In this document: in pieces, positions 1,028 to 62,859 of the stretch
Position numbering within the stretch: the first letter of the stretch is position 1
Layout of the letters: each line of letters begins with the position of its first letter
Assembly: GCA_002429485.1 (NCBI GenBank)
Contig: DIZX01000015.1
Coordinates: forward strand, 325,488-389,487
Length of the DNA stretch: 64,000 bases
Direction of reading: 5' to 3'
Source of the DNA: Patescibacteria group bacterium UBA6017
GTDB taxonomy: Bacteria > Patescibacteriota > Saccharimonadia > UBA4664
Notes under the pieces: model-generated
What the model saw: only the letters and a program-made list of their open reading frames with translations
Databases searched by the model: none
What the model was told of the DNA's origin: nothing
Position numbers and translations under genes: made by a program

Positions 1028-1084
1028 TGGCGCCGCGCTACCAGATTCAGCGTATTCTCAGCGAAATCGGACTAGAATTAGACT

Positions 1085-2798: not shown

Positions 2799-2813
2799 AG
2801 CTACCCTAGCAAC

Positions 2814-2923
2814 GCCGTTAAGGGCACGCGCGAGTGGTGCAGCGAGCGCCCGACAAGACAACGCATCACTTAGCAAAGGGGTAGAGTTAGTGAGCAAGCC
2901 AATCGCGCGTGCCTGTACGGCTT
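2814..2923 (+). repeat. copy A of a conserved structured intergenic element (candidate ncRNA/cis-leader)
   Basis: About 85% identical to 5545-5654 and shares its core with 45560-45645. Closing stem ggcacgcgcg/cgcgcgtgcc and inner hairpin ggtgc-agcga-gcgcc. Confidence 0.6.
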
Positions 2924-3007
2924 AAGCTAATAATCCCTCCCTCTAAGCAATTCCTCAGACCACAGCGCCTAAGATTGGTCCAACGACACAATTAAGGAGT
3001 TCAAATA

Positions 3008-4348
3008 ATGAGTACAGTCTCCCGCGGGGTGCGCAATGCCTTTCGCAATCCCATCCGCACCGGCGGCGTCACGATAATCCTCGGCCTCAGTGTAGGTCTA
3101 GCTCTCGTGATGTTGTTGTCACTTAAAGCCGTTCAGGGCCGCATCGATACCGTGAAGTCTTCCATCGGCAACACAATCACCGTGTCTCCGGCCGGCGCGC
3201 GCGGTTTCGATGGCGGAGGTGAGCCGCTCACGCAAGCCCAGCTCGACAGCCTCAAGTCGCTGCCCAACGTCACTGCCGTCACCGGTACCCTCAATGACCG
3301 GCTTACGCCCGTCACCGATACGTCCTTGGCCTCAGCTATCGATCCCGGTACCCTGGGTAATCGCGCCCGCCGCGCCACCAACCCCGACTCCGCCAATGCT
3401 CCTACCGGTGGCCCCCAGCGGACCTTCAGCTTGCCGGTCATGGTCACCGGCGTCGGCGCGGTCACTCCGGCCGCCGTGAATGCTACCAGCCTCAAGCTTG
3501 TATCTGGGACAACCCTCGATGCCGCCGGCACCACCAATACGGCCGAAGTCGGCCAGGCCCTGGCCACCAAGAATAATCTTGTGGTTGGATCTACCTTCAC
3601 CGCCTACACCGGCACCAAGATCACCGTGGTCGGGATATTTGATGCCGGCAATCAGTTTACCAACGCCGGTCTGATGATGCCCATTAAGAGCCTCCAAGCC
3701 TTGTCGGCCCAGCCCGGGCAGGTGAGCTCCGGCACGGTCACCGTAAATTCCGTGACAAACCTCGAGAGCGCTGTCATCGCTATCAAGGCCAAGCTCGGTA
3801 CCGCCGCCGATGTCGTCAGTCAGCAGGATAGCGCCACGAACGCCATCGCCCCCCTCGAAAGCATCAAGACCGTCTCTACATACAGCCTCATCGGAGCGCT
3901 CGCGGCCGGATCGGTTATCACCTTCCTGACCATGCTCATGATCGTCCGTGAACGCCGCCGCGAGATCGGTGTGCTCAAGGCCATCGGTGCTTCGAACATC
4001 AAGATCACCACTCAGTTTGTAAGCGAAGCCTTCACCCTCACCGCCATGGGCGCTGTACTGGGCGTCATCGGCGGTCTCGTTCTGGCCAACCCGATCCTCA
4101 AGGTCCTCGTGACCAGCAATACCGCCACATCGACCGGCGGTAGCTTCGGCGGTGGCGGGGGACGTGGCTTCGGCCGGGCCTTCGGCGCCATCGGCGGCAA
4201 TACTCTTACCACCCTCCAGACCACCATCGGCTTCGATATCCTAGCCTACGGCCTACTCGCCGCGCTCATCATTGCCTTCCTGGGCAGCGCTCTGCCCGCC
4301 TGGTTGATCGCCAAAGTCCGCCCCGCTGAAGTTATGAGAGGAGAATAA
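3008..4348 (+). CDS. ABC transporter permease, FtsX/MacB-like (N-terminal TM, large extracytoplasmic domain, C-terminal FtsX 3-TM bundle)
   Basis: N-terminal TM helix, roughly 250-aa extracytoplasmic region, C-terminal FtsX-type helices with a Gly-rich loop. Immediately followed by its ATPase. Confidence 0.75.
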   Translation: MSTVSRGVRNAFRNPIRTGGVTIILGLSVGLALVMLLSLKAVQGRIDTVKSSIGNTITVSPAGARGFDGGGEPLTQAQLDSLKSLPNVTAVTGTLNDRLTPVTDTSLASAIDPGTLGNRARRATNPDSANAPTGGPQRTFSLPVMVTGVGAVTPAAVNATSLKLVSGTTLDAAGTTNTAEVGQALATKNNLVVGSTFTAYTGTKITVVGIFDAGNQFTNAGLMMPIKSLQALSAQPGQVSSGTVTVNSVTNLESAVIAIKAKLGTAADVVSQQDSATNAIAPLESIKTVSTYSLIGALAAGSVITFLTMLMIVRERRREIGVLKAIGASNIKITTQFVSEAFTLTAMGAVLGVIGGLVLANPILKVLVTSNTATSTGGSFGGGGGRGFGRAFGAIGGNTLTTLQTTIGFDILAYGLLAALIIAFLGSALPAWLIAKVRPAEVMRGE

Positions 4349-4350
4349 TC

Positions 4351-5079
4351 ATGCTTACCGTCACTAAGTTACACAAAACGTTCAATTCCCACGGCAATCT
4401 GGTCACTGCAGTCGACAACGTCAGCTTCACTGTACCCGACGGCATCTTTGCCGCCATCATCGGCAAGAGCGGTTCGGGCAAAAGTACTCTGCTTTCGCTC
4501 CTAGGTGCCCTGGATATCCCAACTTCCGGCAAGGTCGAAGTGGACGGCCAGGACATCACTAAGCTCAGCGACCGCAAGCTCATCCGCTACCGGTTGACCC
4601 AGATCGGCTTTGTATTCCAAGGCTACAACCTTATCCCCAATCTTAGCGCCATTGAGAACGTGATGCTGCCGATGGAATTCGCCGGCGTCTCCACCAAACA
4701 GCGCCGTACTCGCGCCGAAGATCTGCTCGAACAAGTCGGCCTCACCGCCGACAAGCTCTCGCGCAAACCCAGTCGCCTCTCCGGCGGCGAGCAGCAGCGC
4801 GTGGCTATTGCCCGCGCTCTCGCCAACCGACCTAAACTCATTCTGGCCGATGAACCCACCGGCAACCTGGATAGCGCCACGGGTAAACTCATCGTCGACC
4901 TGCTCCACCATCTGGCAAAGAAGCAAAATACTACCATAATCGCGGTCACCCACGATCTGGAAATTGCCCGTCAAACCGACCTTACTCTTAAGTTAGCCGA
5001 CGGTAAGATGACCGTCGCCAGTAGTTCAGCCGCAGTTCCTGAGCCGGCCGTGCACGCTGCCAAAGCGGTTCACGCATGA
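4351..5079 (+). CDS. ABC transporter ATP-binding protein (MacB/LolD-like)
   Basis: Walker [10 protein letters not shown]; signature [15 protein letters not shown]; Walker [13 protein letters not shown]; H-loop. Confidence 0.9.
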
Positions 5080-5522
5080 AACGCTCCGATATTGCCATCC
5101 TAGTGACGGCCGTAGCCCTAGTAACGGGTCTGGCTGGTTTCGGTATCGGTCGTGCCACTGCTGGCAAGGCTCAGGTTGCCACGCCCGGTTTTAGCGATGC
5201 TGGTAGTCAATCGGGCTTCGGCGTCGGCATGCGCCGAGGCGGTCGGCCTACCTTTGGTAGCATCAGTAGCCTATCGGGAAATGCGCTAGTTATTACCGAT
5301 TCGGCCGGGACAACACATAACGTGACGCTTACGAGCACTACCGCTTACACCTCAGGTGACGGCTCGGCCGCCGCACAGTCTGATCTCACCACCGGCACTA
5401 GCGTAGCCGCTTTCGGAACGGCTGCCGCCGACGGCACCGTTACTGCCACTCGTGTCATCATCAATCCGTCCGCCCCTGGCGGCGGCTCCGCACCCCCAGC
5501 CGGCAGCACCCAGGCGAACTAG
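5076..5522 (+). CDS. hypothetical secreted/membrane-anchored Gly/Ser/Thr-rich protein
   Basis: N-terminal TM/signal sequence. ATG overlaps the ABC ATPase stop (ATGA). Low-complexity G/S/T/A composition. Confidence 0.45.
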   Translation: MKRSDIAILVTAVALVTGLAGFGIGRATAGKAQVATPGFSDAGSQSGFGVGMRRGGRPTFGSISSLSGNALVITDSAGTTHNVTLTSTTAYTSGDGSAAAQSDLTTGTSVAAFGTAAADGTVTATRVIINPSAPGGGSAPPAGSTQAN

Positions 5523-5544
5523 CCCCAGCTTTCTCCGTTTTGAC

Positions 5545-5654
5545 GCCATTAATGGCACACGCGAGTGGCGCAGTGAGCGCCCGACAGGACAACGCGTGGC
5601 AAAGCAAAGGGCTCGAGTTCGTGAGCAAGCCAATCGTGCGTGCCTGTATGGCTT
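5545..5654 (+). repeat. copy B of the conserved structured intergenic element
   Basis: Aligns with 2814-2923. Closing stem ggcacacgcg/cgtgcgtgcc (one mismatch, one wobble) and inner hairpin ggcgc-agtga-gcgcc. Confidence 0.6.
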
Positions 5655-5728
5655 GCTCGCATGGTTAGGTCCGCAGACAAACCGAATGTGCGCACCGAAG
5701 TGGCCAATTTTAATGTAATATACTTCTC

Positions 5729-6877
5729 ATGATCAAAAACCAAACCGCCAACCCCATCGAACGCCACCGCCAACTTCATGGCAAAATTCAGACTCAATCC
5801 AAAGCGGAACTCACGCCTCAGAGCCTGGCGGTATACTATACGCCCGGCGTCGGCGAAGTTTCCACGCATCTATCCGCCCACCCCGAAGCGGCGGGGGAGT
5901 TGACCGTCAAAGGCAATAGCTTGGCCGTGGTGTCCGACGGTTCGGCGGTCCTCGGCCTTGGCAACATCGGACCTTACGGCGCCCTGCCGGTGATGGAGGG
6001 TAAGGCTATGCTTTTCAAGGATCTCGGCGGCATTGACGCCTGGCCGCTCGTGCTCGATACCCAGGATACCGAGGCCATTATTGCGACCGTCAAAGCCGTC
6101 GCGCCCAATTTTGGTGCGATCAACCTCGAAGATATCTCAGCTCCGAGGTGCTACGAGATCGAAGAGCGCCTCCAGGCCGAACTAGATATCCCCGTAATGC
6201 ACGACGACCAACACGCCACCGCCATCATCGCCCTAGCCGGCCTCATCAACGCCTTTAAGGTTGTCGGCAAAGACATCTCCAGCTCCTCGATTGTGGTCAT
6301 TGGTGCCGGTGCGGCCGGAAGTGCGATCGCCCGGCTGTTAGTCGACTATGGCGTGGCCAATGTGGTTCTCACCGACTCCCGCGGCATCCTGGGCCCGGAT
6401 CGTACCGACCTCGATCAATACAAGCAGGCCTGGGCCAAAATCACCAATCCTCGCGGCCTCAGCGGTTCCGTGGCCGACGCCATCGCTGGTGCTGATGCGG
6501 TAGTGGCCGTCTCGGTTCCCGGATCTCTCACCCCCGAGCATATTCGGTCGATGGCCCCGCACCCGATAGTTTTTGCCCTCTCCAATCCAACTCCCGAGGT
6601 TGATCCTGCCGAGGCTCATGCCGCCGGAGCAGCCGTAGTGGCCACTGGCCGATCTGATTTTCCCAACCAGATCAATAACGTCCTGGTCTTTCCGGGAATT
6701 TTTCGTGGCATGCTCGACGAGGGCGTGAATAAGGTTACTACCGAGATCAAACTTAGAGTCGCTAAGGCATTAGCCGCCCTTGTCGTCAGTCCTACCGCCG
6801 ATCGAATAGTCCCCTCGGTCTTCGATGAGGGCGTGGCAGCGGCGGTCGCCGGTGCGGTGAGGCGATCCCAGGGTTAG
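5729..6877 (+). CDS. maeA: NAD(P)-dependent malic enzyme (short bacterial type)
   Basis: YTPGVGEV, VVSDGSAVLGLGNIGP, VIGAGAAGSAIARLL Rossmann motif, ALSNPTPE - characteristic malic enzyme blocks. Confidence 0.85.
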   Translation: MIKNQTANPIERHRQLHGKIQTQSKAELTPQSLAVYYTPGVGEVSTHLSAHPEAAGELTVKGNSLAVVSDGSAVLGLGNIGPYGALPVMEGKAMLFKDLGGIDAWPLVLDTQDTEAIIATVKAVAPNFGAINLEDISAPRCYEIEERLQAELDIPVMHDDQHATAIIALAGLINAFKVVGKDISSSSIVVIGAGAAGSAIARLLVDYGVANVVLTDSRGILGPDRTDLDQYKQAWAKITNPRGLSGSVADAIAGADAVVAVSVPGSLTPEHIRSMAPHPIVFALSNPTPEVDPAEAHAAGAAVVATGRSDFPNQINNVLVFPGIFRGMLDEGVNKVTTEIKLRVAKALAALVVSPTADRIVPSVFDEGVAAAVAGAVRRSQG

Positions 6878-17077: not shown

Positions 17078-17485
17078 ATGGTATCTATCGAAAAACTGCA
17101 CACTCATTTGGCCGGAGCTGGCCATAGCCGCACCGCGGTGCGGAATCAGGTGTATCTCGCCCTAGATTCCATCGGACCTTGCACCAAGCACGACCTCGCA
17201 GTTCATCTCTCCGGTGCTATCGATCAGTCATCCGTTTATCGTACGGTCAACTTATTTGTTGAAATTGGCGTTGCCGACATGATTCGGTTCCATCTCATCG
17301 AGCTCAGCGACCGGTTCAAGCAGCATCATCATCACTTCGTTTGTAATTCCTGCGGCCGCGAGGTTGGGTTCAACGACGAACGGCTCGAACAGCTTCTGGC
17401 GCAACTAGCCTCGGCTCGTAACCTTCAGCTCACCGACCATCAGGTTGAGCTGGCAGGGCTTTGTCAGGCTTGCTCTTCGTCCTGA
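17078..17485 (+). CDS. zur: Fur-family metalloregulator, probably Zur
   Basis: Winged-helix N-terminus; HHHHFVCNSCGRE...C...C metal-site motifs. Divergent from zupT. Confidence 0.85.
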   Translation: MVSIEKLHTHLAGAGHSRTAVRNQVYLALDSIGPCTKHDLAVHLSGAIDQSSVYRTVNLFVEIGVADMIRFHLIELSDRFKQHHHHFVCNSCGREVGFNDERLEQLLAQLASARNLQLTDHQVELAGLCQACSSS

Positions 17486-18138
17486 AGTTCAACCTCACCC
17501 GTTTCGCGAGCTACGTTCTGGGATGAAATTTCGTAAGTCAGTTTAGTGCCGGGCTCGGTGTGTAGGTGGACCAATTGGTTCACCAGCACGGCTCCATCGT
17601 TTGGCCCAAGATCGGAAAACTCCGCAACCAATTTGTGGGCCGTAATTTTGACCCGGCTTCGCGAAAAACTATTCAGGCTCGGCCAAGAGAATTTCGAGGT
17701 CTTACCCCGCCCGTCGAGCCGATCCGGCCGCTCCGGCGCCTTACGGTCCTCATCGATGCGCCCATCCTTCACCTGCAGCTCAATATTGACCCGTGAGTCA
17801 CCCATGTCGGTCGTGTTATGCACGACGAATTTTACCGGCAGCACTCCGTCATCCACAGCTCTTTGGTATTTTGTTAACTGCCGCTCGTAGCGCTCCAGAT
17901 CCTGAGCATACTTCCTCCAGGCATCGCGGTGATAAAAACCCAACGCAGGTAGCGACCAATCTCTGAACAGACTATTGTGGTGTTCGGCGATCTTGCGTTC
18001 GGCAAAGGCCACTTCGGCCTCCACAAACTTACGCTCGGCTTCGTACTTGGGTTCGCTGAGCTTCAGCATCACCCAGTAGTGCGGCTTTTCGGCTGCCGGA
18101 TTATTTTTATGCATAACCATTATGCTTCTATCGTACAC
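17464..18138 (-). CDS. hypothetical protein (charged, about 220 aa, no recognised domain)
   Basis: Long ORF with protein-like composition. An alternative start MVMHKNNP lies 18 nt in. Confidence 0.45.
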   Translation of the reverse strand: MYDRSIMVMHKNNPAAEKPHYWVMLKLSEPKYEAERKFVEAEVAFAERKIAEHHNSLFRDWSLPALGFYHRDAWRKYAQDLERYERQLTKYQRAVDDGVLPVKFVVHNTTDMGDSRVNIELQVKDGRIDEDRKAPERPDRLDGRGKTSKFSWPSLNSFSRSRVKITAHKLVAEFSDLGPNDGAVLVNQLVHLHTEPGTKLTYEISSQNVARETGEVELQDEEQA

Positions 18139-18184: not shown

Positions 18185-18260
18185 TGGTGGGCCCGGCAGG
18201 ATTTGAACCTGCGACCAAGCGGTTATGAGCCGCCTGCTCTAACCACTGAGCTACGGGCCC
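18185..18260 (-). tRNA. tRNA(CAU), probably tRNA-Ile2 (lysidine) given C4-G69/C5-G68 and near-identity to canonical Ile2
   Basis: Reverse complement gggcccgtagctcagtggttagagcaggcggctCATaaccgcttggtcgcaggttcaaatcctgccgggcccacca: cloverleaf with CAU anticodon. Confidence 0.8.
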
Positions 18261-18306
18261 GTATCCGGAATGCGGAATAGAGCTAGTATATATTATACTT
18301 AGTCCA

Positions 18307-18690
18307 ATGAAACTTCCAAAAATAAACCTCAACGCCAATAGTGCGCTCAATTTTGTTGGCGCGGTCATAATATTCTATCTGGTGGCCGTCCTGGGCCAGA
18401 CCGTAAAACACAATTATGACCTCGGCCGGCAGATCGATGATTTGAGGACTCAAATCATCGATCTGCAGGGTCAGAAAGAGCAGCTCGTCTACAGCATTGC
18501 ATATTACAATACCGACGCTTTTCGCGACCGCGAAGCTCGGGCCAGGCTTGGATTACAGCTCCCGGGTGAAAACGTGGTCATCATTCCCCACGCCAGCCCC
18601 GCTCCGAGTGCATCGACGCAGAGCAGTAAAACCTCCGTCAAGCACTCGAACCCTCAGCAGTGGTTTGATTTCCTAACCGGCCGAATCTAG
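18307..18690 (+). CDS. FtsB/DivIC-like septum formation initiator (TM + coiled coil)
   Basis: N-terminal TM followed by a heptad-like coiled coil (LGRQIDDLRTQIIDLQGQKEQL). Confidence 0.5.
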   Translation: MKLPKINLNANSALNFVGAVIIFYLVAVLGQTVKHNYDLGRQIDDLRTQIIDLQGQKEQLVYSIAYYNTDAFRDREARARLGLQLPGENVVIIPHASPAPSASTQSSKTSVKHSNPQQWFDFLTGRI

Positions 18691-19826
18691 CTCAGCGCTC
18701 GTGCGCGATTAGCCGCAATAACCATGCCGCCGATTGCCCAGATTGCCGTCGACAGGCCGAAAAATCCGCCAATCAAGGGCAGCCACGCCGCTAGCGCGAC
18801 TATCGGCACTCCAGCCAGGGCGGCGAGCGCCAGTCCGCGGCGATCATCATCCACTTGCTGCAGAATTAACCTGCCCACCGTCACTCCCGCAAACCCGGCC
18901 GAGGTCACCAGCGCCAGCACCCACAATGTACCAAGCACCAATGCTATCGGCAGGCCCACCACGGTTATCGCCAGAAATACCAAAACCATCGGGCCGGCGA
19001 TTACCGTCAGCGCTCCCCAGCCGATGCTAGCCGACCAGCGCGTGCGCATTGTGCCCGCCACACTGCCTATCAGCCTCGGCGCCAACCATATTGCCACCAG
19101 TACGCCCAGTAAGGTCGCCACTATCGAGTACAGCAGCGTGCCTAGCCGGTCGGCTACGGTCGTGCTCCGAGTTGCCGCCCGGACTGGTGCGTGCCTAGCT
19201 ACTTGCCCCTGAATTTTCGACTTATCGAGAGCAAATGTATTGTCGCTAGTGTAGTCCAGATTGCCCGTCACGGCAGCACCGCCTCCGAGGGTCAGAGTCT
19301 GCGCCTCCGCCGTAACGCTCCCGCCAACCGTAGAGTTGATCGCCAGTGTTCCGGCACCAGCATACACCGCTTGCCCCACAGAGCCGTTTAGAGTGGCCGT
19401 CTGCGCCCCCACAGCCACATCTCCGCCAACCTTAGCGTTGCTCCCCAATACAAGGTTCTGCGCCCCCACAGTGACGTTACGAGCCACATTGCCGTTGATG
19501 CTCACGATCTGGCCTCCTGCCCGGACACTCCCGCCTACCGGGCCGTTCACGGTCAGCGTCTGTGCGCCGCACAGTACGTCGCCGCCGACAGAGCCGTTAA
19601 TTACCACCGACTGTCCGGCGCACACCACGTCGCCAGTAACATTGCCGTCGACCGTAATCGTTTGCCCGGCTACGTAGTAATTTCCGGTCCGGTTGTCGCC
19701 CTTCGCCAGGGTTACATCCGTCGCGGCGCTCTGTGTGGCTGCTAACGCCACGGCCGGAACCGCCAGAGCCATAATTAAACCTAATAGAATACCGATTCTT
19801 CTCATTGCAGCTCTCCTTTTCGTCAA
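18687..19826 (-). CDS. secreted beta-helix-repeat (bactofilin/DUF583-like) protein with a C-terminal polytopic membrane anchor
   Basis: Signal peptide; more than 10 tandem roughly 18-aa repeats GxVxGDV/VxINGxV; 4-5 C-terminal TM helices. Confidence 0.55.
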   Translation of the reverse strand: MTKRRAAMRRIGILLGLIMALAVPAVALAATQSAATDVTLAKGDNRTGNYYVAGQTITVDGNVTGDVVCAGQSVVINGSVGGDVLCGAQTLTVNGPVGGSVRAGGQIVSINGNVARNVTVGAQNLVLGSNAKVGGDVAVGAQTATLNGSVGQAVYAGAGTLAINSTVGGSVTAEAQTLTLGGGAAVTGNLDYTSDNTFALDKSKIQGQVARHAPVRAATRSTTVADRLGTLLYSIVATLLGVLVAIWLAPRLIGSVAGTMRTRWSASIGWGALTVIAGPMVLVFLAITVVGLPIALVLGTLWVLALVTSAGFAGVTVGRLILQQVDDDRRGLALAALAGVPIVALAAWLPLIGGFFGLSTAIWAIGGMVIAANRARALS

Positions 19827-19900
19827 CCTATTATACGCCCTTTTATAGCTTCCATCATTGACCGGTCCGCCTCAATCTGGTATGTTATACGCTGTTACAC

Positions 19901-19976
19901 CGCGGGGTGGAGCAGCTGGCAGCTCGTTGGGCTCATAACCCAAAGGTCGTAGGTTCGAATCCTACCCCCGCTACCA
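19901..19976 (+). tRNA. initiator tRNA-fMet (CAU)
   Basis: cgcggggtggagcagc...ttgggctCATaacccaa...: C1 mismatch, three consecutive G-C pairs in the anticodon stem; near-identical to the canonical bacterial initiator. Confidence 0.85.
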
Positions 19977-20084
19977 AGAACTAATCCAAAATTGAGACGA
20001 GCGCTCCAGTGTGGGCGCCGTTTTAATTTATAGGTAGTAATTCTTGCCTTTTCTACCTCAAACTCTTACAATTTGTACTCGTAT

Positions 20085-20159
20085 GGCTGCGTAGCTCAGT
20101 GGTAGAGCAGGAGACTCATAAGCTCTTGGTCGGTAGTTCGAATCTACCCGTAGCCACCA
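20085..20159 (+). tRNA. elongator tRNA-Met (CAU)
   Basis: ggctgcgtagctcagtggtagagcaggagactCATaagctcttggtcggtagttcgaatctacccgtagccacca. Assigned as elongator Met because it lacks the C4/C5 TilS determinants; assignment versus Ile2 is inferential. Confidence 0.75.
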
Positions 20160-20342: not shown

Positions 20343-20762
20343 CTAGCGGTAACGGATATCGGTCATGCCGACAACGTACTTGAAGTCTACTCCGGTATTA
20401 TTCGGGCCGGTGAATGTCACCATCACGCCGCCGGTGATGTTCTTCCCGACAGCAGTCCAGCCGGGGTCGGTGCAAATACCGCGCAGGGTGATCGAAGCGA
20501 GGGGGCCGTTTGTCGTGATCAACATTCGGACATGTCCGGCAGTAGGTAGTGGGTAGGTCTGCTCCTGCCCCCCAATAACGTCAGCGAAAATCCAGTCGGT
20601 GGCGCAGGGACCAATGTCGTTGACGTAGCTAGTAGCATTACTGCCGCCCGATGCCGACACCGTGCCGACGTTCAACGCCAACGGAGCCGCCAGCATGACC
20701 GATGCCAAGAGGGTTAATTTAATTCTAGATACGATATTGGTATGCAAGGTGCACGCCTCCAT
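20343..20762 (-). CDS. hypothetical secreted protein (139 aa)
   Basis: Clear signal peptide (LTLLASVMLAAPLALNVGTVSA), then Gly/Thr-rich beta-type composition. Confidence 0.5.
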   Translation of the reverse strand: MEACTLHTNIVSRIKLTLLASVMLAAPLALNVGTVSASGGSNATSYVNDIGPCATDWIFADVIGGQEQTYPLPTAGHVRMLITTNGPLASITLRGICTDPGWTAVGKNITGGVMVTFTGPNNTGVDFKYVVGMTDIRYR

Positions 20763-20988: not shown

Positions 20989-21954
20989 TCAGGCCGCGAT
21001 GAGGGCCATGAGTGATGTCAGCTTGATGGCTCCGTAGGCCTCGAGGACCTGTGGGCGGGGCCCGATGAGCCGAACCGTTGTGCCCGACGGCACGTACGAG
21101 AGCAGGCCGCCCTGACTCATCATCCACAACGACATGTTGTCGATCGCCGAGATGGAGTTGGCCTGCACCGACAGCGTGCTGAAGCGGTCCTGGTCGGCGA
21201 CGTAGCCGATCGTGCGGCCGATGAGCTGTGCCATCAGTCGACCGACCTCGACGGCGAACGGATCGCCGCTCTTGGCCAGAGTGCACAGGCGGGATACGAG
21301 CACCCTCCTGAGATGGCGGTCAGACGGGTGGTTGACCGCCGCCTCCATCATCATCGAAGTGCGCACATCCGGCGTGAGTCCGACTTCAGCGTTCGTCGCC
21401 TCGATGAACTGAGCAGCGTTGAGCCAGCCGAGGTTGCCGAGCAGCTCGATGGAGCTGTTGTTGGCCGGCGAGCCCACGAAGTTGGCGAACTCGGACGTCC
21501 GCGGGCTGAATCCAGCGATGACGTCCGCTTCCACGAACCGGTGTGTTCTGAGATCCCCGTCAACGGCCCAGCTAGTCCACTTGGGACCAATCTTGAGCAA
21601 CGCCTGAGGGAGCCCGCCGTCGTTGACGCCGCGCTGGATCAGAACCTGGGACTTGTCGCCCACGAGCTGGTATCCGGCGAGCGTTGCAGCCGTCGGGGAT
21701 ACAGCCTGAAGGTTCATGCCCTTGGGCACGGTGACCCGGTCGATGGTGTAGCCGTTGTGGTGCGAGATGCCGATGACTCGAGTTGAGAATCCAACCCATG
21801 GAAGGATCTCGTTCTCGATCGTGCCGATGACGGAGTTGTCCGGCAGGATGACGCCTGAGCGCTCCCGAGGTGCGCCGCGCGGGGGGATGACCACCGCGTG
21901 GTACTTCTCGTCACACACAGCAACGCCGACGCCGTGAAACTTGTTCTCAAGCAT
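20989..21954 (-). CDS. hypothetical protein (321 aa), higher GC than its surroundings; monocistronic with its own AT-rich promoter and terminators
   Basis: Long ORF of about 65% GC against about 58% locally. A perfect 11-bp hairpin (20930-20957) follows the stop. No recognisable motif. Confidence 0.5.
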   Translation of the reverse strand: MLENKFHGVGVAVCDEKYHAVVIPPRGAPRERSGVILPDNSVIGTIENEILPWVGFSTRVIGISHHNGYTIDRVTVPKGMNLQAVSPTAATLAGYQLVGDKSQVLIQRGVNDGGLPQALLKIGPKWTSWAVDGDLRTHRFVEADVIAGFSPRTSEFANFVGSPANNSSIELLGNLGWLNAAQFIEATNAEVGLTPDVRTSMMMEAAVNHPSDRHLRRVLVSRLCTLAKSGDPFAVEVGRLMAQLIGRTIGYVADQDRFSTLSVQANSISAIDNMSLWMMSQGGLLSYVPSGTTVRLIGPRPQVLEAYGAIKLTSLMALIAA

Positions 21955-45052: not shown

Positions 45053-45562
45053 ATGCAATTCAAGGCCACAACCAAACTAGATAAAGCTTTTGAGATAGGT
45101 ATTATGCTCAAGGGTCTCGACGGTATTCTCGAGACCATCGGCGGACTTATCCTGCTTTTTATCAAGCCCGAATTTATCGGCAAAGTTGGCGTCTATCTGA
45201 CGGAACACGAATTATCCAATGATCCGCACGATTTTGTTGCTTCGCATATCTTGCATTCAACTCAAAATATCGGTCGCGGGGTTCTAATATTCGCGGCCGT
45301 TTATCTGTTGTCCCACGGCATTACCAAAATAATTCTAGTGGTAGAAATTCTGCGCAATCGGCTCTGGGCCTACCTGGGCCTAATTTATTTAACGGTCGGC
45401 TTCATTATTTATCAATCCTACCGCTATATTTTTTCACCCTCCTGGGGATTGGCCCTCTTTACGATTTACGACGTAATTGTGGTGGCATTAACGGTCCTCG
45501 AATATCGCAAACGCAAACTTGATCAGAAAAGCCCGGAACCAAAAGCGGCGCCTCAAGGGTGA
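45053..45562 (+). CDS. DUF2127-like membrane protein
   Basis: 4-TM protein with the LKGLDGILE...GGL N-terminal pattern typical of DUF2127. Lower GC than its neighbours. Confidence 0.55.
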   Translation: MQFKATTKLDKAFEIGIMLKGLDGILETIGGLILLFIKPEFIGKVGVYLTEHELSNDPHDFVASHILHSTQNIGRGVLIFAAVYLLSHGITKIILVVEILRNRLWAYLGLIYLTVGFIIYQSYRYIFSPSWGLALFTIYDVIVVALTVLEYRKRKLDQKSPEPKAAPQG

Positions 45563-45645
45563 ACTCCCGGGCGCCAGCGAGCGCCAGACAAGACAACGCG
45601 CTGATGAGCAAAGAGGTCGAGTTCGTGAGCCAGACCGGGAGTTTG
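45560..45645 (+). repeat. copy C of the conserved structured intergenic element (divergent closing stem, core conserved)
   Basis: The core cagcgagcgcc(a)gacaagacaacgc...gagcaaagaggtcgagttcgtgagc matches copies A and B. Closing stem aactcccggg/ccgggagtt is different sequence, same pairing. Confidence 0.55.
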
Positions 45646-45713
45646 CCCGCAAAAGCATAATTCTATATCCGCTTGAGCTTGTTTTTCAGGCTTGGCATGG
45701 CCATAATCGGCGC

Positions 45714-47970: not shown

Positions 47971-47992
47971 TTCGCAGTGCTAAGATAGCACC

Positions 47993-59015: not shown

Positions 59016-59300
59016 CTATCTAAACGGGTCGCTTTTGCCGAGATCGCCGATCGGCACGTTGCCCTGAACCACATCCAGTTTCTTTACCGCTTCTATGGTT
59101 GCCTTGTCGAAGCTGATTTTGGCGGCCGGATCTGCAGCCACCGGCGCGGTCACGTCGGCCTTCACGTTGAGTGCCGTATTCACGATTAAGGCCGTATAGC
59201 CAAAAACCCCGATCAGAACCGCGCCAAAAACGTATGGCTGAAGTTGCCGCAGAATCGGCAGGATTTTTTTGTAATCAAGATTGAGTTTCATATTATTCAT
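59016..59300 (-). CDS. small membrane-anchored protein, last gene of the pilMNO operon (PilP-like position; C-terminal GKSDPF)
   Basis: Start overlaps the pilO stop. N-terminal TM, then a short periplasmic domain ending IGDLGKSDPFR. Confidence 0.45.
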   Translation of the reverse strand: MNNMKLNLDYKKILPILRQLQPYVFGAVLIGVFGYTALIVNTALNVKADVTAPVAADPAAKISFDKATIEAVKKLDVVQGNVPIGDLGKSDPFR

Positions 59301-59851
59301 GGCTTTATATAGGCATTAAGTGCGATCGAATACACAATCGGCTTGGTTTTATCTGGGCGGCTAATGGCAAGATTGGTGACGTTCGTAAACCGGTTTAGGC
59401 TTTCAACTTTAGCGGTAAATTGCTGTAATTGATCGTAATTACCCGAAAGCTGGAAGCTGATCGGCATTGCCAGTACCGTGCCCGATTTTATCGTCTGCGA
59501 CACCGAAGTCGGTAGGCCAACCGGGCTTGGCATGCTCAGGCTGGTGATTTGGAGGCCTACCTGAGAAGCAATACTCTGGAGCTGAGCCAGTACTTCGGTC
59601 TGTTTTTTATCACGAGGCAGGGCTTCATCCAAGAGCGGCAAAATCGGCGTAATCTCTCGGTCGTACAGCCGTTTTAACCGGCTGAGGTTCTCGATTTGGT
59701 TATCGGCCGCTACTTGGGAGGCCAGACCGGTTGATAATACTGCTGAATCGGCCGAAAGCTGTTTCATCCCCAGGTAGTAGCCGCCACCCGCGAGCAGAAC
59801 TGTTGCTGTAAAAACGCCTAGCAACACCAGGAAAAATTGCTTCGGTTTCAT
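59297..59851 (-). CDS. pilO: type IV pilus assembly protein PilO
   Basis: N-terminal TM, coiled coil, and a C-terminal PilO-like domain. Translationally coupled to pilN. Confidence 0.65.
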   Translation of the reverse strand: MKPKQFFLVLLGVFTATVLLAGGGYYLGMKQLSADSAVLSTGLASQVAADNQIENLSRLKRLYDREITPILPLLDEALPRDKKQTEVLAQLQSIASQVGLQITSLSMPSPVGLPTSVSQTIKSGTVLAMPISFQLSGNYDQLQQFTAKVESLNRFTNVTNLAISRPDKTKPIVYSIALNAYIKP

Positions 59852-60393
59852 TTTGCCATCCCCGGCTTAAATGCCACCACTACGCTGGTTTCGAAGGAAG
59901 AGCCGTTGCTGGAGGATATAGTTTCAAGATCCGCGCCGGATATGCGCGGGGAGGTGATCAGGGCGTTACGAAAGGCCAGCGCACCGGAGTAGCTCGAGGC
60001 AGTTACGGCTATTCTCACTGGTGCTGCATCGTTGCCGGTGAGTGTCATTGAATTGATTGACACTCCCTGCGGCACCACCTTGGCTATGTCGGCTATTACC
60101 GCCGAAAACCTAGTCTGCGTAGCCAGAACGTACTTAATCGCGCTTAGCCGGTCGCTGGCATCCCTGGCCTTAGGGGTAAATGTCTTGTTGAGAGCCGCAA
60201 TCACCGCCTGTTTTTCGGCCACGTCGGCCGCCACATTCTTCGTCTGCACTCCTAGGTAGTAGATGCTAACGCCGAATATCACCCCAAGTACCGCGACTAC
60301 TGCTACCGATACGCGGACATAGCCTATCGCCAGGCGATTTAACTTGGCGAAACGAATCTGATCTTTGATTTCGGGAGGCAGTAGGTTAATCAC
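59848..60393 (-). CDS. pilN: type IV pilus assembly protein PilN
   Basis: MINLLPPE conserved N-terminus (INLLP motif) followed by a TM helix. Confidence 0.75.
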   Translation of the reverse strand: MINLLPPEIKDQIRFAKLNRLAIGYVRVSVAVVAVLGVIFGVSIYYLGVQTKNVAADVAEKQAVIAALNKTFTPKARDASDRLSAIKYVLATQTRFSAVIADIAKVVPQGVSINSMTLTGNDAAPVRIAVTASSYSGALAFRNALITSPRISGADLETISSSNGSSFETSVVVAFKPGMAK

Positions 60394-61442
60394 AGCTTAC
60401 CCTCCATGCGGGCAAGCCCGATAGCGGTGGTATACATCGGAGCATCGTACTTGGACACCTTCTCGATGTGTTTCAGGTCGAGCCCCGCCCATGGATCGGC
60501 CAGCACCACCGGCAAGTTGATTTGAGCCGCCATGTACTCCAGGAAACCCGGCATGCTGGCACTGCCCCCGCCCACGATGATTGCCTCAATTTTGCGCTTC
60601 TGAACTCCACGGTCTTGATAAAACTTTATTACCCGGCGCATTTCGGCGCACATTTTATTGAGCGGACCGCCCAACGAGTCCATTACCTTTGGCTGCAGCC
60701 CAGACGGTCCCAGGCCAAACTTGTACTTAATCTCGTTGGCCTGCTCGAAGCCCACTCCCAGATCTTTCACGAGTTGTTTGGTGAGGCTGTCGCCGCCCAT
60801 CGCGATGGTATCGGTGAGGCGGATTACCTTATCGTGCACACTCAGATCGATCGAAGTGGAACCGATATCGGCAACTAGGGTGGTTTTGTTGAGTTGAGTC
60901 GAGGCCACAATCGCGCGCGTGGCGGCTGCCATGCTGGAATCAATCATCGCTACTTCCAGGCCCAGCATATCGAAGAGTTTAATATAACTGTCGGCAATAG
61001 CCCGCGGCGCCGCCACCATCAATACTTCATTTCGTTCGGGGCCAGTTTCGATAATTTCGTAATCGATATATAGGTCCGGCAGCGGCACCGGTATGTATTG
61101 CTCAGCTTCCAGACGGACTGCTTGACCCAGATCGGCCGGGTTCATCGGTGGCAGCTCGAGCACGCGGGTAAACACCTTCGCCACCGGCAGTGCTGCAGCT
61201 ACCCGCTTGGCGGTGATCTCGCCAAAACTCATCTTCTTCATCAGCGGCTTCAGGGCTTTCACAATCTCTTGGGGGTCTACGATAATTCCCTCCACGATGG
61301 CATCATCCGGGAACATGGCGTAGCCGTAGCCGAGGACCTCCATGTTCTTGCCATTAGGCCGCAACTGGATCATTTTGGCCGTGCGGGTACCCAGGTCAAA
61401 CCCAAATAGCGGCCGCTCTTTATATACCAGAGGTATCTTCAT
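60390..61442 (-). CDS. pilM: type IV pilus assembly ATPase-fold protein PilM
   Basis: Actin-like/FtsA-fold blocks (GFDLGTRTAKMIQL, DIGSTSIDLSV, IVGGGSASMPG). Confidence 0.85.
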   Translation of the reverse strand: MKIPLVYKERPLFGFDLGTRTAKMIQLRPNGKNMEVLGYGYAMFPDDAIVEGIIVDPQEIVKALKPLMKKMSFGEITAKRVAAALPVAKVFTRVLELPPMNPADLGQAVRLEAEQYIPVPLPDLYIDYEIIETGPERNEVLMVAAPRAIADSYIKLFDMLGLEVAMIDSSMAAATRAIVASTQLNKTTLVADIGSTSIDLSVHDKVIRLTDTIAMGGDSLTKQLVKDLGVGFEQANEIKYKFGLGPSGLQPKVMDSLGGPLNKMCAEMRRVIKFYQDRGVQKRKIEAIIVGGGSASMPGFLEYMAAQINLPVVLADPWAGLDLKHIEKVSKYDAPMYTTAIGLARMEGKL

Positions 61443-61494
61443 TATGCGTTATATAACCATAGCCATTATGCTCATTGTATCACCTCATCTGCGC

Positions 61495-62859
61495 TTACGG
61501 GTTATACAGTTGTTCTCGCCAGTTCAGCACCGCGAACGATCCGGTGGTGGGGTAGCAGGGGGGCGGACCATATGTGAGGTGGGTGTCGAAGGTATTTGTA
61601 TCTGTAGCGTAGCCGGAAGTTACCGTGCCAAAGCCATTCACCCAACTCCAGGTCCAGTAGTCATAACTGTCGATCGACCCGTAAAACGTTAGTTTAGTTT
61701 TTGCTCCGCCGTTGTTTGGGAACCAAACATGACCTTTCTGCGATAACATTGCGGCATCGATTTCTATGGTATTCGGTGCATACACCGCTACTCGTACATC
61801 ACTCTGCGCAATTAACCCGACTACCGCCGTGCCATCCTTTGCCGCGTACGTGAGGTTGCCGACAATCGTTATCGAAGTGTTGGTCGCGGGGTTGTCGGGC
61901 AGGCGCCCGCTCATTATATTGATTCTCCCCGGGAAGTTCGTGCCTTCCACCCAGACATTATCTTGGACGTATAGGATTCCGTTAGCCGGTGGAGCCAGAT
62001 TTGCGATCGGCGAACTAGTGGTGGTGGAGAACCCGCTCGAGGTCTCGTTTTTGATGAGATATTCGTCGATGGTGCCGTCAGCCTTGAGCTTCAGGTAGTA
62101 GCCCTGCTTGTTTGTCTGGGCTAAGTAAATTCCTCCGGACTGAGCCTGGGCGATGCACGAGTTATAGTCGGCGGTCACCTTGGTGAAGTCAATCGCCGGC
62201 ACCGGGAACTGCCACTGCGAGGTTGGTCCGCCCGTTCCCCATACCCCGTTATGTACCGCGCCGTCGCCGCCAAATCCCGGCGTCGGCTTGTAGCTCGCAC
62301 TAGCTGATGTTACCGGGCCATTATTTACGCCGTCGAAGTGCACGCCGACGTTCGAGTGCACGGCCCCGGTCGAACTCTCCCCAACCCCAAACCACACTTC
62401 GGTACCTGTGAGTAGGGCGTAATCGGCGAACGACGGCTGCCCAAGCTGTGCCAAGACGGTCCGCGTTCCGGAGAAGTGGGGGACTTGTCCGATCGATTTC
62501 ACGGTAATGATCGTGGAGCCGCTGACGGGCGGGGTAATGTAGAGCGTATACGTACCCAGAAGGTTGCCGTCAGAATCATAATAATTATGAGCATATGGTC
62601 CGTAGGGAGCGGTATTGGGCGTCGAGCCACCGTCTTTGTAGTCGCTTGAGTTGTGCGACATATGCCACAGGTAGTAGTTTATTCCGGCCTCGGCCACATT
62701 TAAGGCTTCGGCGCTCCTCGTCTCGTATTGCGAGAATCGGGCATTAGAAATGGTCAGCTGGGCGGCTATTATCGCCAGTGAAGACAGTATAAGGGCCATA
62801 ATTAGCACCGTTAGCATGATGAATCCAGGCTGCTGTTTCGAGTTCAATGTAGGTCTCAC
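61495..62859 (-). CDS. PilX-N-domain minor pilin-like protein (454 aa)
   Basis: N-terminal hydrophobic helix then SNARFSQYETRSAEALNVAEAGINYY, which has a PilX_N-like pattern. Large Gly/Thr-rich C-terminal domain. Confidence 0.55.
   Translation of the reverse strand: MRPTLNSKQQPGFIMLTVLIMALILSSLAIIAAQLTISNARFSQYETRSAEALNVAEAGINYYLWHMSHNSSDYKDGGSTPNTAPYGPYAHNYYDSDGNLLGTYTLYITPPVSGSTIITVKSIGQVPHFSGTRTVLAQLGQPSFADYALLTGTEVWFGVGESSTGAVHSNVGVHFDGVNNGPVTSASASYKPTPGFGGDGAVHNGVWGTGGPTSQWQFPVPAIDFTKVTADYNSCIAQAQSGGIYLAQTNKQGYYLKLKADGTIDEYLIKNETSSGFSTTTSSPIANLAPPANGILYVQDNVWVEGTNFPGRINIMSGRLPDNPATNTSITIVGNLTYAAKDGTAVVGLIAQSDVRVAVYAPNTIEIDAAMLSQKGHVWFPNNGGAKTKLTFYGSIDSYDYWTWSWVNGFGTVTSGYATDTNTFDTHLTYGPPPCYPTTGSFAVLNWREQLYNP

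What the first reader, a model, noticed from the sequence alone, without database searches (positions are those of the whole stretch)
2814..2923. Three-copy family of a roughly 100-nt intergenic element with covarying stems: candidate novel structured RNA
Copies sit at 2814-2923, 5545-5654 and 45560-45645. All lie in intergenic DNA in the same orientation as the downstream genes, which are respectively the ABC permease, malic enzyme and comEC. A and B are about 85% identical across 110 nt. C shares only the central core (cagcgagcgccNgacaagacaacgc ... agcaaag ... gagttNgtgagc). The outer closing stem differs in sequence but keeps its pairing: A has ggcacgcgcg/cgcgcgtgcc, B has ggcacacgcg/cgtgcgtgcc, and C has aactcccggg/ccgggagtt. 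An inner hairpin ggYgc-N5-6-gcgcc is present in all three, and A carries a G.U wobble there. Compensatory change at stems with conservation in loops and the core is the signature of a functional RNA (a leader/riboswitch-like element or an sRNA) rather than a REP or MITE. The antisense ORFs that overlap it (2637-2897, 5549-5869) are probably artefacts.
Basis: seen in the sequence. Interest (0 to 1): 0.75.

Follow-up and report, generated by a model that had tools for sequence, protein, structure and literature searches.

The report
Mobile structured hairpin repeat in Saccharimonadia
The three copies belong to a previously undescribed family of ~110-base hairpin-forming repeats that sit just after gene ends in a group of tiny Saccharimonadia (CPR) bacteria, keep their folding through compensatory mutations, and come and go between related genomes like small mobile elements.

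Summary
There are three same-strand copies (2812-2923, 5543-5654, 45547-45650), none elsewhere in the window, and no Rfam match. I recovered 15 distinct copies at 8 independent sites in related Saccharimonadia genomes.

All share one architecture:
- a short outer helix P0;
- a long helix P1 whose sequence is unrelated between sites but always pairs;
- a newly recognised 7-bp helix P2 (GCGAGCG/CGUGAGC, with tandem G.A) showing clear covariation;
- a conserved, apparently unpaired apical region (CCNGACAAGACAACGC...AGCAAAGRGG...GAGUU).

G.U outnumbers A.C 18:1, so the sense strand is the one that folds.

The element is not a 5' leader. It always follows the upstream gene's stop codon, twice facing a convergent gene. 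Orthologous sites are filled in some close relatives and empty in others. The paralogues A and B are more alike than orthologues are.

My best reading is a MITE-like mobile palindromic element that is co-transcribed as a 3'-UTR or intercistronic RNA hairpin, with selection on the fold. It is a new variant of a known kind. Its RNA function and its mobilisation mechanism remain unproven.

The parts
2812..2923 (+). Copy A, whole element. It starts 14 nt after the histidine-kinase stop (2796-2798) and ends 85 nt before the FtsX permease start (3008).
   Evidence: The limits are set by where the A/B paralogue similarity begins and ends.
2814..2818 (+). A: P0 5' arm GCCGU. It pairs with 2917-2921.
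   Evidence: Variants are GCCAU/AUGGC in B, GCCGC/GCGGC in L002 and AUAGGC/GCCUAU in L018B.
2822..2838 (+). A: P1 5' arm (GGGCACGCGCGA-G-UGGU). It pairs with 2898-2914.
   Evidence: flank duplex -43.1 kcal/mol, z = -6.3.
2842..2848 (+). A: P2 5' arm GCGAGCG. It pairs with 2889-2895.
   Evidence: 5 of 7 pairs change on both sides across the family.
2849..2888 (+). A: conserved apical domain, made of the CCC bulge, GACAAGAC, the loop AACGC-N7-AGCAAAGGG and GUAGAGUU. A tentative helix P3 pairs 2852-2859 with 2881-2888.
2889..2895 (+). A: P2 3' arm AGUGAGC.
2898..2914 (+). A: P1 3' arm (GCCA-A-UCGCGCGUGCCU).
2917..2921 (+). A: P0 3' arm ACGGC.
5543..5654 (+). Copy B, whole element (= A + 2731, no indels). 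It starts 21 nt after the stop of the 148-aa gene (5520-5522) and lies upstream of the malic enzyme gene (5729). P2 is 5573-5579 / 5620-5626. P0 is 5545-5549 / 5648-5652.
45547..45650 (+). Copy C, whole element. It overlaps the end of the DUF2127 gene (stop 45560-45562) and lies upstream of comEC.
45557..45570 (+). C: P1 5' arm GGGUGAACUCCCGG. It pairs with 45635-45648 (14 bp including U.G and G.U).
45577..45583 (+). C: P2 5' arm GCGAGCG. It pairs with 45624-45630 (CGUGAGC).
45635..45648 (+). C: P1 3' arm CCGGGAGUUUGCCC.
1028..1041 (.). Empty site E, just after the CMAS methyltransferase stop. The close relative L020 carries a ~120-bp element here, flanked by GGCACCGCG ... CACCGCCG.
47971..47992 (.). 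Empty site D, between the YebC stop and the RuvC start. The MAG La2_metabat2.113 (L027) carries an element here.

Best explanation
A, B and C are members of a lineage-restricted family of small non-coding palindromic repeats. The core hairpin is about 110 nt, and insertions run up to about 190 bp.

**Behaviour in the genome**
The elements behave like miniature mobile elements in a clade of Candidatus Saccharimonadia. They land just downstream of, or slightly overlapping, the stop codon of a gene, in the same orientation as that gene. They are therefore transcribed as its 3' UTR or as an intercistronic spacer.

**Structure**
The sense strand folds into a rod:
- P0, 4-6 bp;
- an internal loop;
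- P1, 9-19 bp, with sequence free to vary;
- an asymmetric junction;
- P2, 7 bp, usually with a tandem G.A/A.G;
- a CCN bulge;
- possibly P3;
- a conserved purine- and C/A-rich apical region.

**What is shown**
- The family exists and shares this architecture.
- P1, P2 and P0 covary.
- Pairing is sense-strand specific.
- Orthologous sites differ in whether they carry the element.
- Paralogues within one genome are homogenised.

**What is inferred**
- New copies arise by a trans-acting activity that recognises the fold and the conserved apical region, not fixed terminal repeats.
- Once inserted, the RNA hairpin acts generically on the upstream message. It could be a 3'-end protective or processing hairpin (for example an RNase III-type substrate) or a boundary between transcription units. 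That would explain why some copies, such as site C, are kept under constraint while others decay.
For: **Family and architecture**
- 15 distinct copies lie at 8 independent sites in Saccharimonadia contigs.
- They align on one architecture.
- The flanks form a duplex with z = -2.8 to -8.2 in 13 of 14 copies.

**Covariation**
- P1 is 90.7% paired and all 10 counted pairs change on both sides. P2 is 78.6% paired and 5 of 7 pairs change on both sides.
- 0/500 shuffles reach the observed covariation score, and shifted registers collapse to 9-56% paired.
- P2 was defined by position relative to sequence anchors, not by its pairing.
- Decisive variants: U-A in L002 and L005, A-U in L018B, U-A in L032C, and all-Watson-Crick P2 in L012A, L027D, L020E and L038.

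**Strand**
- There are 18 G.U versus 1 A.C in P1 + P2, and 9 versus 0 in P2 alone.

**Position**
- At 8 of 8 sites the element has the orientation of the upstream gene, with no divergent-promoter contexts. Two sites face a convergent gene.

**Mobility-type behaviour**
- Site A is filled in the window, L020 and L012, and empty in L010/L011, L013-L017 and L018.
- Site C is filled in 4 genomes and empty in L029-L031.
- Site E is filled in L020 but empty in the window, although the two share 95% permease identity.
- Site D is filled in L027 and empty in the window.
- Site A holds two different subtypes, in the window versus L012.
- Short imperfect direct repeats flank the insertions at E, D, A and C.
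- winA-winB are 14% different, against 25.5% and 33% for orthologous copies and 36% at four-fold sites.

**Constraint at site C**
- winC-L027C differ by 11.5% with no indel, against 39-55% at four-fold sites.

**Precedent**
- Bacterial MITEs are known to act as RNA hairpins, to be fused to ORFs, and to have variable target duplications next to dyad symmetry (PMC2229807).
Against: **No mobilising machinery or clean ends**
- No transposase, reverse transcriptase or integrase was found in the window ORFs scanned. No autonomous parent element was identified.
- The terminal and stem sequences differ between sites. A classical transposase that recognises terminal inverted repeats cannot explain the spread.
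- The flanking direct repeats are short and imperfect, and the element ends are not sharply defined. Target-site duplication is only suggestive.

**Alternative histories not excluded**
- Empty sites could be precise losses.
- The A/B similarity could be local gene conversion of old, vertically inherited copies.

**No functional or expression data**
- There are no expression data.
- No promoter or terminator consensus lies in the elements.
- The proposed RNA role (stability, processing or boundary) is an analogy, not a result.

**Limits of the sample**
- The 15 copies come from about 8 sites and are partly orthologous. The covariation statistics therefore count some events more than once.
- P1 arms were chosen as the best duplex, which favours pairing in that helix.
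Confidence: 0.55

Rival explanations
1. A vertically inherited, host-beneficial cis-acting RNA module placed at the 3' ends of transcription units. It would act as a factor-binding 3'-UTR element, a U-tract-less terminator or insulator, or a processing site. It would be repeatedly lost rather than mobile, and homogenised locally by gene conversion.
For: - Three helices covary and pairing is sense-strand specific.
- The 19-21-nt core stretches are identical in genomes whose four-fold sites differ by 39-55%.
- Site C is conserved well above neutral expectation.
- Every copy sits at a boundary between unrelated co-directional or convergent transcription units, directly after a stop codon.
Against: - Orthologous copies at sites A and B diverge at nearly the neutral rate, and one (L020B) has lost its stem.
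- Site E differs between genomes with 95% permease identity.
- Site A carries two different subtypes with unrelated stems.
- Close relatives do without the element at the same boundaries.
- There is no U-tract and no terminator consensus.
- The upstream genes have no function in common.
Confidence: 0.25
2. A DNA-level element. The hairpin would form in single-stranded DNA, or as a cruciform, and would serve as a recombination, transposition or protein-binding site. Comparable cases are IS200/IS605-type ends, REP/RAYT or integron attC, where structure rather than sequence is recognised. Transcription would be irrelevant.
For: - The stems vary in sequence but conserve structure, and the orientation is strict. 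This is the pattern of structure-recognised single-stranded DNA sites.
- G.T is also tolerated in DNA hairpins.
- The elements show presence/absence behaviour.
Against: - No Y1/HUH transposase or integron integrase was found in the window ORFs scanned.
- The element is about 110 nt with a conserved ~40-nt apical domain. IS200/IS605 ends are two small subterminal hairpins, REPs are 20-40 nt, and attC sites have conserved R boxes. Reading the sequences gave only one-off near-matches to the attC R-box consensus (my reading).
- The tandem G.A/A.G plus G.U combination in P2 is a typical RNA motif.
Confidence: 0.1
3. A small protein-coding gene, or a translated extension. One sense frame is open through the first five copies found and reads ..[AV]SARQDNAxxSK[EG]x[ED][LF]V.., with CGA/AGA and CAA/CAG synonymous differences.
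For: - One search shows the open frame and two synonymous changes.
- In two relatives the upstream DUF2127 ORF reads into the element.
Against: - The frame has a TGA stop in L012A and a 1-nt indel plus a stop in L018B.
- No start codon is conserved.
- A profile of the peptide finds nothing credible among 5.8 billion proteins (one hit, E = 5.7).
- The read-through in P0124/P0125 uses a different frame.
- No gene is called there on the source contig.
Confidence: 0.02
4. A riboswitch-like 5' leader or attenuator controlling the downstream genes.
For: - The three window copies precede co-directional genes.
- There are weak full-length cmscan alignments to c-di-GMP-I (13 bits) and c-di-GMP-II-GCG (13.8 bits).
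Against: - Those scores are far below the gathering thresholds of 35 and 47.9 bits. For c-di-GMP-II-GCG, the one hit whose alignment was inspected, only the outer stem is aligned.
- Two copies are followed by convergent genes.
- At site B the element stays with the upstream gene when the downstream gene differs.
- The downstream genes are functionally unrelated.
- No expression-platform terminator is present.
Confidence: 0.04

Closest known systems
YPAL / RU-2 elements of Yersinia (168-bp palindromic mobile repeats)
   Same: - Not A+T-rich and without TA termini.
- The inverted repeats are internal.
- Target duplications vary in size.
- Targets lie in or next to dyad symmetry.
- Empty and filled sites occur between related genomes (PMC2229807).

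Here, the empty sites D and E contain short dyads, the flanking repeats are about 7-12 bp and imperfect, and filled/empty sites are seen.
   Different: YPAL copies share their sequence along the whole element. Here only the apical domain and the short P0/lead are conserved, while the long stem is unrelated between sites and is kept by covariation. There is no sequence similarity, and the phylum differs.
Correia / NEMIS elements of Neisseria, and ERIC/IRU of enterobacteria (MITEs that act as RNA hairpins)
   Same: - 100-155-bp intergenic palindromes co-transcribed with neighbouring genes.
- The hairpin RNA is a substrate for RNase III (Correia) or alters the stability of the upstream mRNA (ERIC).
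- Some copies are fused to ORFs.

Here the size class is the same, the position in transcribed gene ends is the same, and ORF read-in occurs.
   Different: - Correia elements have conserved 26-bp terminal inverted repeats, TA duplication and IHF or promoter motifs. None of these is seen here.
- RNase III processing is untested here.
Rickettsia palindromic elements (RPE)
   Same: They are 105-146-bp palindromic repeats in a reduced genome. They fold as long stem-loops and can sit inside or at the ends of ORFs, contributing residues. Here copy C supplies the last codons and the stop codon of DUF2127, and P0124/P0125 gain about 11 residues from the element.
   Different: RPEs are typically in-frame insertions within genes. 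Here all copies are at or after the stop codon, and no reading frame is conserved.
REP / BIME repeats with RAYT transposases
   Same: Both are extragenic palindromes located after gene ends. Both are proposed to affect termination and mRNA stability.
   Different: REPs are 20-40 bp and carry a GTAG or CGTC tag (abstract of PMC3733652). This element is about 110 nt with a conserved apical domain. No such tag was noticed when reading the aligned flanks, and no formal scan was run. No RAYT gene was seen.

Membership tests
MITE (miniature inverted-repeat transposable element) | Short (<~300 bp), non-coding and multi-copy. | tested here: met
   Insertions are about 110-190 bp. There are 3 copies in 64 kb and 15 distinct copies overall. 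The coding frame is refuted.
MITE (miniature inverted-repeat transposable element) | Terminal inverted repeats whose sequence is conserved among copies, serving as the transposase recognition site. | tested here: not met
   All copies are palindromic, but the P1 sequences are unrelated between sites. Only a short GCC../..GGC helix (P0) and an (A/G)CGCC lead recur.
MITE (miniature inverted-repeat transposable element) | Target-site duplication flanking the insertion. | tested here: inconclusive
   Imperfect direct repeats of 7-12 bp occur at sites E (GGCACCGCG / CACCGCCG), D, A and C. The ends are not sharply defined and no statistical test was possible.
MITE (miniature inverted-repeat transposable element) | Filled and empty orthologous sites between related genomes. 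| tested here: met
   Seen at sites A, C, D and E.
MITE (miniature inverted-repeat transposable element) | A related autonomous IS with matching ends, or a candidate transposase. | tested here: not met
   No transposase, RT or integrase domain was found in the 30 window ORFs scanned, and none was seen in the listed Pfam calls for genes near the copies in the fetched loci; one large serine recombinase in L015 is about 6 kb from site A, which is empty in that locus. Whole genomes could not be searched.
Rfam families (any of 4227, including c-di-GMP-I/II riboswitches) | Covariance-model score at or above the family's gathering threshold. | tested here: not met
   There are no hits at gathering thresholds in the window. 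The best sub-threshold hits are 13-15 bits against thresholds of 35-48. For c-di-GMP-II-GCG only the outer stem is aligned.
Riboswitch / 5' leader | Constant position upstream of the gene(s) it regulates, with a functionally coherent gene set. | tested here: not met
   Two sites face convergent genes. At site B the element keeps the upstream gene, not the downstream one. The neighbouring genes are unrelated.
Intrinsic (Rho-independent) terminator | A G+C-rich hairpin followed directly by a U-tract. | tested here: not met
   The scan reports no terminator-like site in any of the three copies, and the tails lack T runs.
REP / BIME | A 20-40-bp palindrome with a GTAG or CGTC tag, plus an associated RAYT. 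| tested here: not met
   The element is about 110 nt, and no GTAG/CGTC tag was noticed when reading the aligned flanks (no formal scan was run). No Y1 transposase was seen. The feature definition comes from the abstract of PMC3733652.
Integron attC site | R''/R' boxes (RYYYAAC ... GTTRRRY) and an adjacent integron integrase with a cassette array. | tested here: not met
   Reading the sequences gave only one-off near-matches, and the conserved part is the centre, not the ends. No integrase was seen. The consensus is quoted from my own knowledge.
Structured non-coding RNA (generic) | Helices supported by compensatory changes in independent sequences, on one strand. | tested here: met
   P1, P2 and P0 covary, and 0/500 shuffles reach the observed score. 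G.U:A.C is 18:1.
Structured non-coding RNA (generic) | Evidence of transcription, or of a discrete RNA species. | not testable with these tools
   No transcriptome data are available. Co-transcription is inferred only from position and orientation.

The most novel reading that the evidence does not exclude
The element could be a new class of structured RNA with a biochemical role of its own. In this reading the apical domain would be a conserved binding platform or catalytic core. P2, with its tandem G.A, and the freely covarying P1 would present that domain. The RNA, not the DNA, would be what selection and perhaps the spreading mechanism recognise. Examples would be RNA-templated or RNA-guided copying to new gene ends, or a trans-acting 3'-UTR-derived RNA in CPR bacteria, which lack most known regulatory RNAs.
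Probability: 0.18. Interest if true: 0.75.

Novelty: new variant of a known kind. Interest (0 to 1): 0.5.

Why it matters
**Why it could matter**
- Candidate Phyla Radiation bacteria have tiny genomes. From my own knowledge, few non-coding RNAs or small mobile elements have been described in them. Two full-text searches turned up no description of such an element in Saccharibacteria/CPR.
- This family shows that such genomes still carry a spreading, structure-constrained repeat placed precisely at gene ends.
- Its organisation is the reverse of a classical MITE. The apical domain is conserved and the long stem varies in sequence while covarying. That points to recognition of a fold rather than of terminal repeats.
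- It offers a tractable case for two questions: how small palindromic elements move, and how they become useful RNA hairpins (3'-end protection, processing, operon boundaries).

**Practical consequences**
- The element creates spurious ORFs.
- It alters C-termini of real proteins, as in DUF2127.
- It is a useful marker of strain-level variation.

Tried and rejected
1. **Rfam.** There was no hit at gathering thresholds. At E <= 10 on four copies only noise appeared.
2. **Small-protein reading.** It looked attractive at first.
It is not conserved and does not covary.
4. **Further helices inside the apical ~40 nt.** A scan of all column pairs gave nothing convincing. P3 (GACAAGAC/GUCGAGUU) is mostly invariant, with only one covarying pair, so it stays tentative.
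5. **First metagenome pattern scan.** 0 hits. The second scan gave one new element in two contigs and five chance hits.
6. **Viral contig scan.** Chance hits in coding sequence only. Phage and plasmid BLAST gave no match.
7. **Promoter and terminator consensus scans.** Nothing in the elements.
8. **Idea that P1 is copied from the target (an inverted target duplication).** I saw no convincing match between P1 arms and the empty-site sequences when reading.
9. **Kink-turn reading of the tandem G.A in P2.** Rejected on geometry, from my own knowledge of the motif. The G.A pairs are flanked by Watson-Crick pairs on both sides with no 3-nt bulge next to them.
10. **Hammerhead-like CUGAUGAG in copy C.** This stretch falls in the variable N7 segment and is absent from the other copies.
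11. **A covariance model.** Not built. MAFFT cannot align the variable-length P1 and junction, and a model with only P2 and P3 would add little over the nhmmer profile, which found no extra copies.
Full report
**1. The observation**

- The three stretches are as described. The 21-nt core GAGCGCCNGACARGACAACGC occurs three times, all on the + strand, against 0.02 expected. A profile built from the copies finds no other copy in the window.
- A and B are 85.6% identical over 111 nt without gaps, and B = A + 2731. C shares the central part only.
- The flanks of each copy pair much better than shuffled flanks. The whole regions of A and C fold better than shuffles (z = -3.3 and -3.8); B does not (z = -1.0).
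- Gene context:
  - A lies 14 nt after the stop of a histidine kinase and before an FtsX permease.
  - B lies 21 nt after the stop of a 148-aa gene and before the malic enzyme gene.
  - C overlaps the last codons and the TGA of a DUF2127 membrane protein and precedes comEC.

**2. No known family**

- Rfam 15 reports only four tRNAs in the window at gathering thresholds.
- Permissive searches on four different copies give only 9-15-bit noise. The c-di-GMP-II-GCG alignment covers nothing but the outer stem.
- There is no match in phage or plasmid collections. Viral contigs gave only chance hits in coding sequence.

**3. Relatives elsewhere**

- A scan of one genome per species found the core twice in a Candidatus Saccharimonadia MAG, La2_metabat2.113 (L002, L005), plus three chance hits.
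- The window itself matches a JGI metagenome contig.
- I fetched orthologous loci through homologues of the permease and of DUF2127, and ran a second metagenome scan. This gave 15 distinct copies at 8 independent sites:

| Site | Context | Copies |
|---|---|---|
| A | kinase -> permease | window, L020, L012 |
| B | after the 148-aa gene | window, L020, L018 |
| C | DUF2127 -> comEC | window, L027/L028, L032, L033 |
| D | YebC -> RuvC | L027 |
| E | CMAS -> response regulator | L020 |
| - | - | L002 |
| - | after pyrH | L005 |
| - | small membrane protein -> ftsA | L038/L040 |

**4. Not coding**

- One sense frame is open in the first five copies and even shows two synonymous differences.
- It carries a TGA in L012A, and a 1-nt indel plus a stop in L018B. 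No start codon is conserved.
- A profile of the peptide finds nothing credible in 5.8 billion proteins.
- In two relatives the DUF2127 ORF runs into the element in a different frame and gains ..GRQRVPDKT[TP]H.

**5. Architecture**

Aligning all copies on two sequence anchors (CCNGACA and GAGTT) gives the following layout.

1. **Lead and P0.** A lead (A/G)CGCC is followed by a short outer helix P0, GCCRN/NYGGC. Its variants are GCCGU/ACGGC, GCCAU/AUGGC, GCCGC/GCGGC and AUAGGC/GCCUAU.
2. **P1.** After an internal loop comes a 9-19-bp helix P1. Its sequence is unrelated between sites, from GGGCACGCGCGA to AUUCAUUCAAAAAUC. It is paired in 13 of 14 full copies (z = -2.8 to -8.2).
3. **Junction.** The junction is asymmetric: 3-8 G+C-rich nt on the 5' side and usually AA on the 3' side.
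4. **P2.** P2 is formed by the 7 nt before CCNGACA and the 7 nt after GAGTT.
   - The common form, GCGAGCG/CGUGAGC, has two Watson-Crick pairs, a tandem G.A/A.G, a G.U, and two more Watson-Crick pairs.
   - Pair 2 is C-G, U-A, U.G or G-C. Pair 5 is G.U, G-C or A-U. Pair 6 is C-G, U.G or U-A.
   - Four copies replace the G.A/A.G by Watson-Crick pairs, giving perfect helices: AGCAGCG/CGCUGCU, GCGAGCG/CGCUCGC, GGCAGUG/CGCUGCC and GUGAGCG/CGCUCAC.
5. **Apical region.** It comprises a CCN bulge, then GACAAGAC, AACGC, seven variable nt, AGCAAAGRG and GUCGAGUU.
   - GACAAGAC may pair with GUCGAGUU (P3). That helix is mostly invariant, with a single covarying pair (C-G x10, U-A x3), so I treat it as tentative.
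   - No other pairing inside the apical region is supported.

**6. Statistics**

- On the natural alignment, P2 is 78.6% paired and 5 of 7 pairs change on both sides. For P2 and P3 together, 0/500 shuffles reach the observed covariation score. Shifted registers fall to 19-43% paired.
- P2 was defined by position, not by pairing. P1 arms were chosen as the best duplex, so their 90.7% pairing is partly by construction. Even so, the existence of such a duplex at every site is itself the finding.
- Copies at one site are orthologous, so cells are not independent events.
It is 58.6% paired with no double change, the same as shuffles.
- The nearest-neighbour model puts P2 in the minimum-energy fold of 6 of 14 copies, and within 2 kcal/mol of it in 3 more.
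- In P1 + P2 there are 18 G.U/U.G cells and 1 A.C/C.A cell, and 9 to 0 in P2 alone. The strand that folds is therefore the sense strand of the neighbouring genes.

**7. Position**

- At all 8 sites the element has the orientation of the gene upstream of it. It lies from overlapping the stop codon to a few tens of nt after it. The exceptions are L018B (about 300 nt) and L002 (about 75 nt after a small ORF).
- Five contexts are co-directional and two are convergent: L002 and L018B. None is divergent.
- At site B the downstream gene differs between genomes while the upstream gene stays the same. This rules out a 5' leader.
- No promoter or terminator consensus falls in the elements.

**8. Turnover**

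- **Site A** is empty in L010/L011, L013-L017 and L018. There the kinase stop abuts a conserved CTAAGCAAT..CTCAGA motif, and that motif also lies downstream of the element in filled sites. At site A the L012 copy is a different subtype, with a wholly different stem.
- **Site C** is empty in L029-L031.
- **Site E** is filled in L020 and empty in the window, although the two genomes share 95% permease identity. The insertion is flanked by GGCACCGCG and CACCGCCG.
- **Site D** is filled in L027 and empty in the window, with a possible 10-12-bp duplication.
- **Divergence, window versus L020.** Four-fold degenerate sites differ by 35-37%, the orthologous elements by 25.5% (A) and 33% (B), and the paralogues winA/winB by only 14%. 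L020A is as close to winB as to winA. L020B has a degenerate stem.
- **Divergence, window versus L027.** Four-fold sites differ by 39-55%, yet the site-C elements differ by 11.5% with no indel. That is less than the adjacent comEC upstream region, which differs by 24%.

Some copies therefore drift or are homogenised, while at least one is constrained.

**9. Interpretation**

- Three sets of features together fit a small mobile palindromic element that is co-transcribed and selected for its fold:
  - multi-copy, non-coding and palindromic;
  - filled and empty sites, local clustering, paralogue homogenisation and decaying copies;
  - sense-strand-specific covariation.
- The nearest described elements are YPAL/RU-2 (G+C-neutral, internal inverted repeats, variable duplications, targets near dyads), Correia/NEMIS and ERIC (RNA hairpins affecting processing and stability of neighbouring messages), and RPE (contribution to ORFs). 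All are as summarised in PMC2229807.
- It fails one defining MITE feature, conserved terminal inverted repeats. No transposase was found in the window or in the fetched loci (and the Pfam lists).
- I therefore do not file it as a member of any named family. I rate it a new variant of the kind.
- The mobilisation mechanism and the RNA role (3'-end protection, RNase III-type processing, or a boundary between transcription units) are inferences by analogy. They need whole-genome censuses and transcript mapping.

**10. Verdict**

- The 'not a MITE' and 'leader/riboswitch' halves are not supported.

Noticed in passing
window 2940-2960 (also L010, L011, L013-L018, upstream of the permease gene): The motif CTCTAAGCAATYYCTCAGA directly upstream of the FtsX permease gene is conserved in all relatives, with or without the element. 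It is probably the promoter or operator of the ABC operon that sits next to the response-regulator/kinase pair.
   Followed up: partly
window 18185-20159: Three tRNA-Met genes lie within 2 kb (18185-18260 on the - strand, 19901-19976 and 20085-20159 on the + strand). They are surrounded by ORFs with no Pfam match (17464-18138, 18687-19826, 20343-20762, 20989-21954).
   Followed up: no
L005 4544-4567 (- strand): A 24-nt partial second copy of the 5' part of the core (GCAGTGAGCGCCCGACA) lies about 50 nt upstream of the full copy. It could be a remnant of an older or aborted insertion.
   Followed up: no
L027 7935-7985: The 3' tail of the site-D element carries a tandem duplication, CCGCAAGCAAAAGC x2. 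A similar CCGCAAAAGCATA follows copy C in the window (45646-45659). The element may therefore extend beyond the hairpin on its 3' side.
   Followed up: partly
L029 10604-11973 (also L031): In the relatives whose site C is empty, comEC is split into three ORFs of 81, 236 and 94 aa, so it is possibly a pseudogene. The window has an intact ~480-540-aa comEC.
   Followed up: no
L032 126-665 and L033 147-686 (proteins P0124, P0125): The DUF2127 ORF runs into the element and ends ..GRQRVPDKT[TP]H. The repeat thus changes the C-terminus of a real membrane protein in some strains.
   Followed up: partly
L020 5700-10470; L027 4877-7935; window 2812-5654: Copies cluster locally. In L020, E, A and B bracket the RR-HK operon and the ABC operon within 5 kb. 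C and D lie 3 kb apart in L027. A and B lie 2.7 kb apart in the window. This suggests local hopping or gene conversion.
   Followed up: partly
window 59297-63479 (- strand): A type IV pilus gene cluster (PilM, PilN, PilO, a PilX-like protein, and a pseudopilin with an N-methylation motif) lies in the same window as comEC. This is consistent with a DNA-uptake lifestyle.
   Followed up: no
window, whole length: GC skew on the + strand is negative almost throughout (about -0.1), although nearly all genes are on the + strand. This is the opposite of the usual leading-strand pattern. It bears on whether the element's orientation follows transcription or replication.
   Followed up: no
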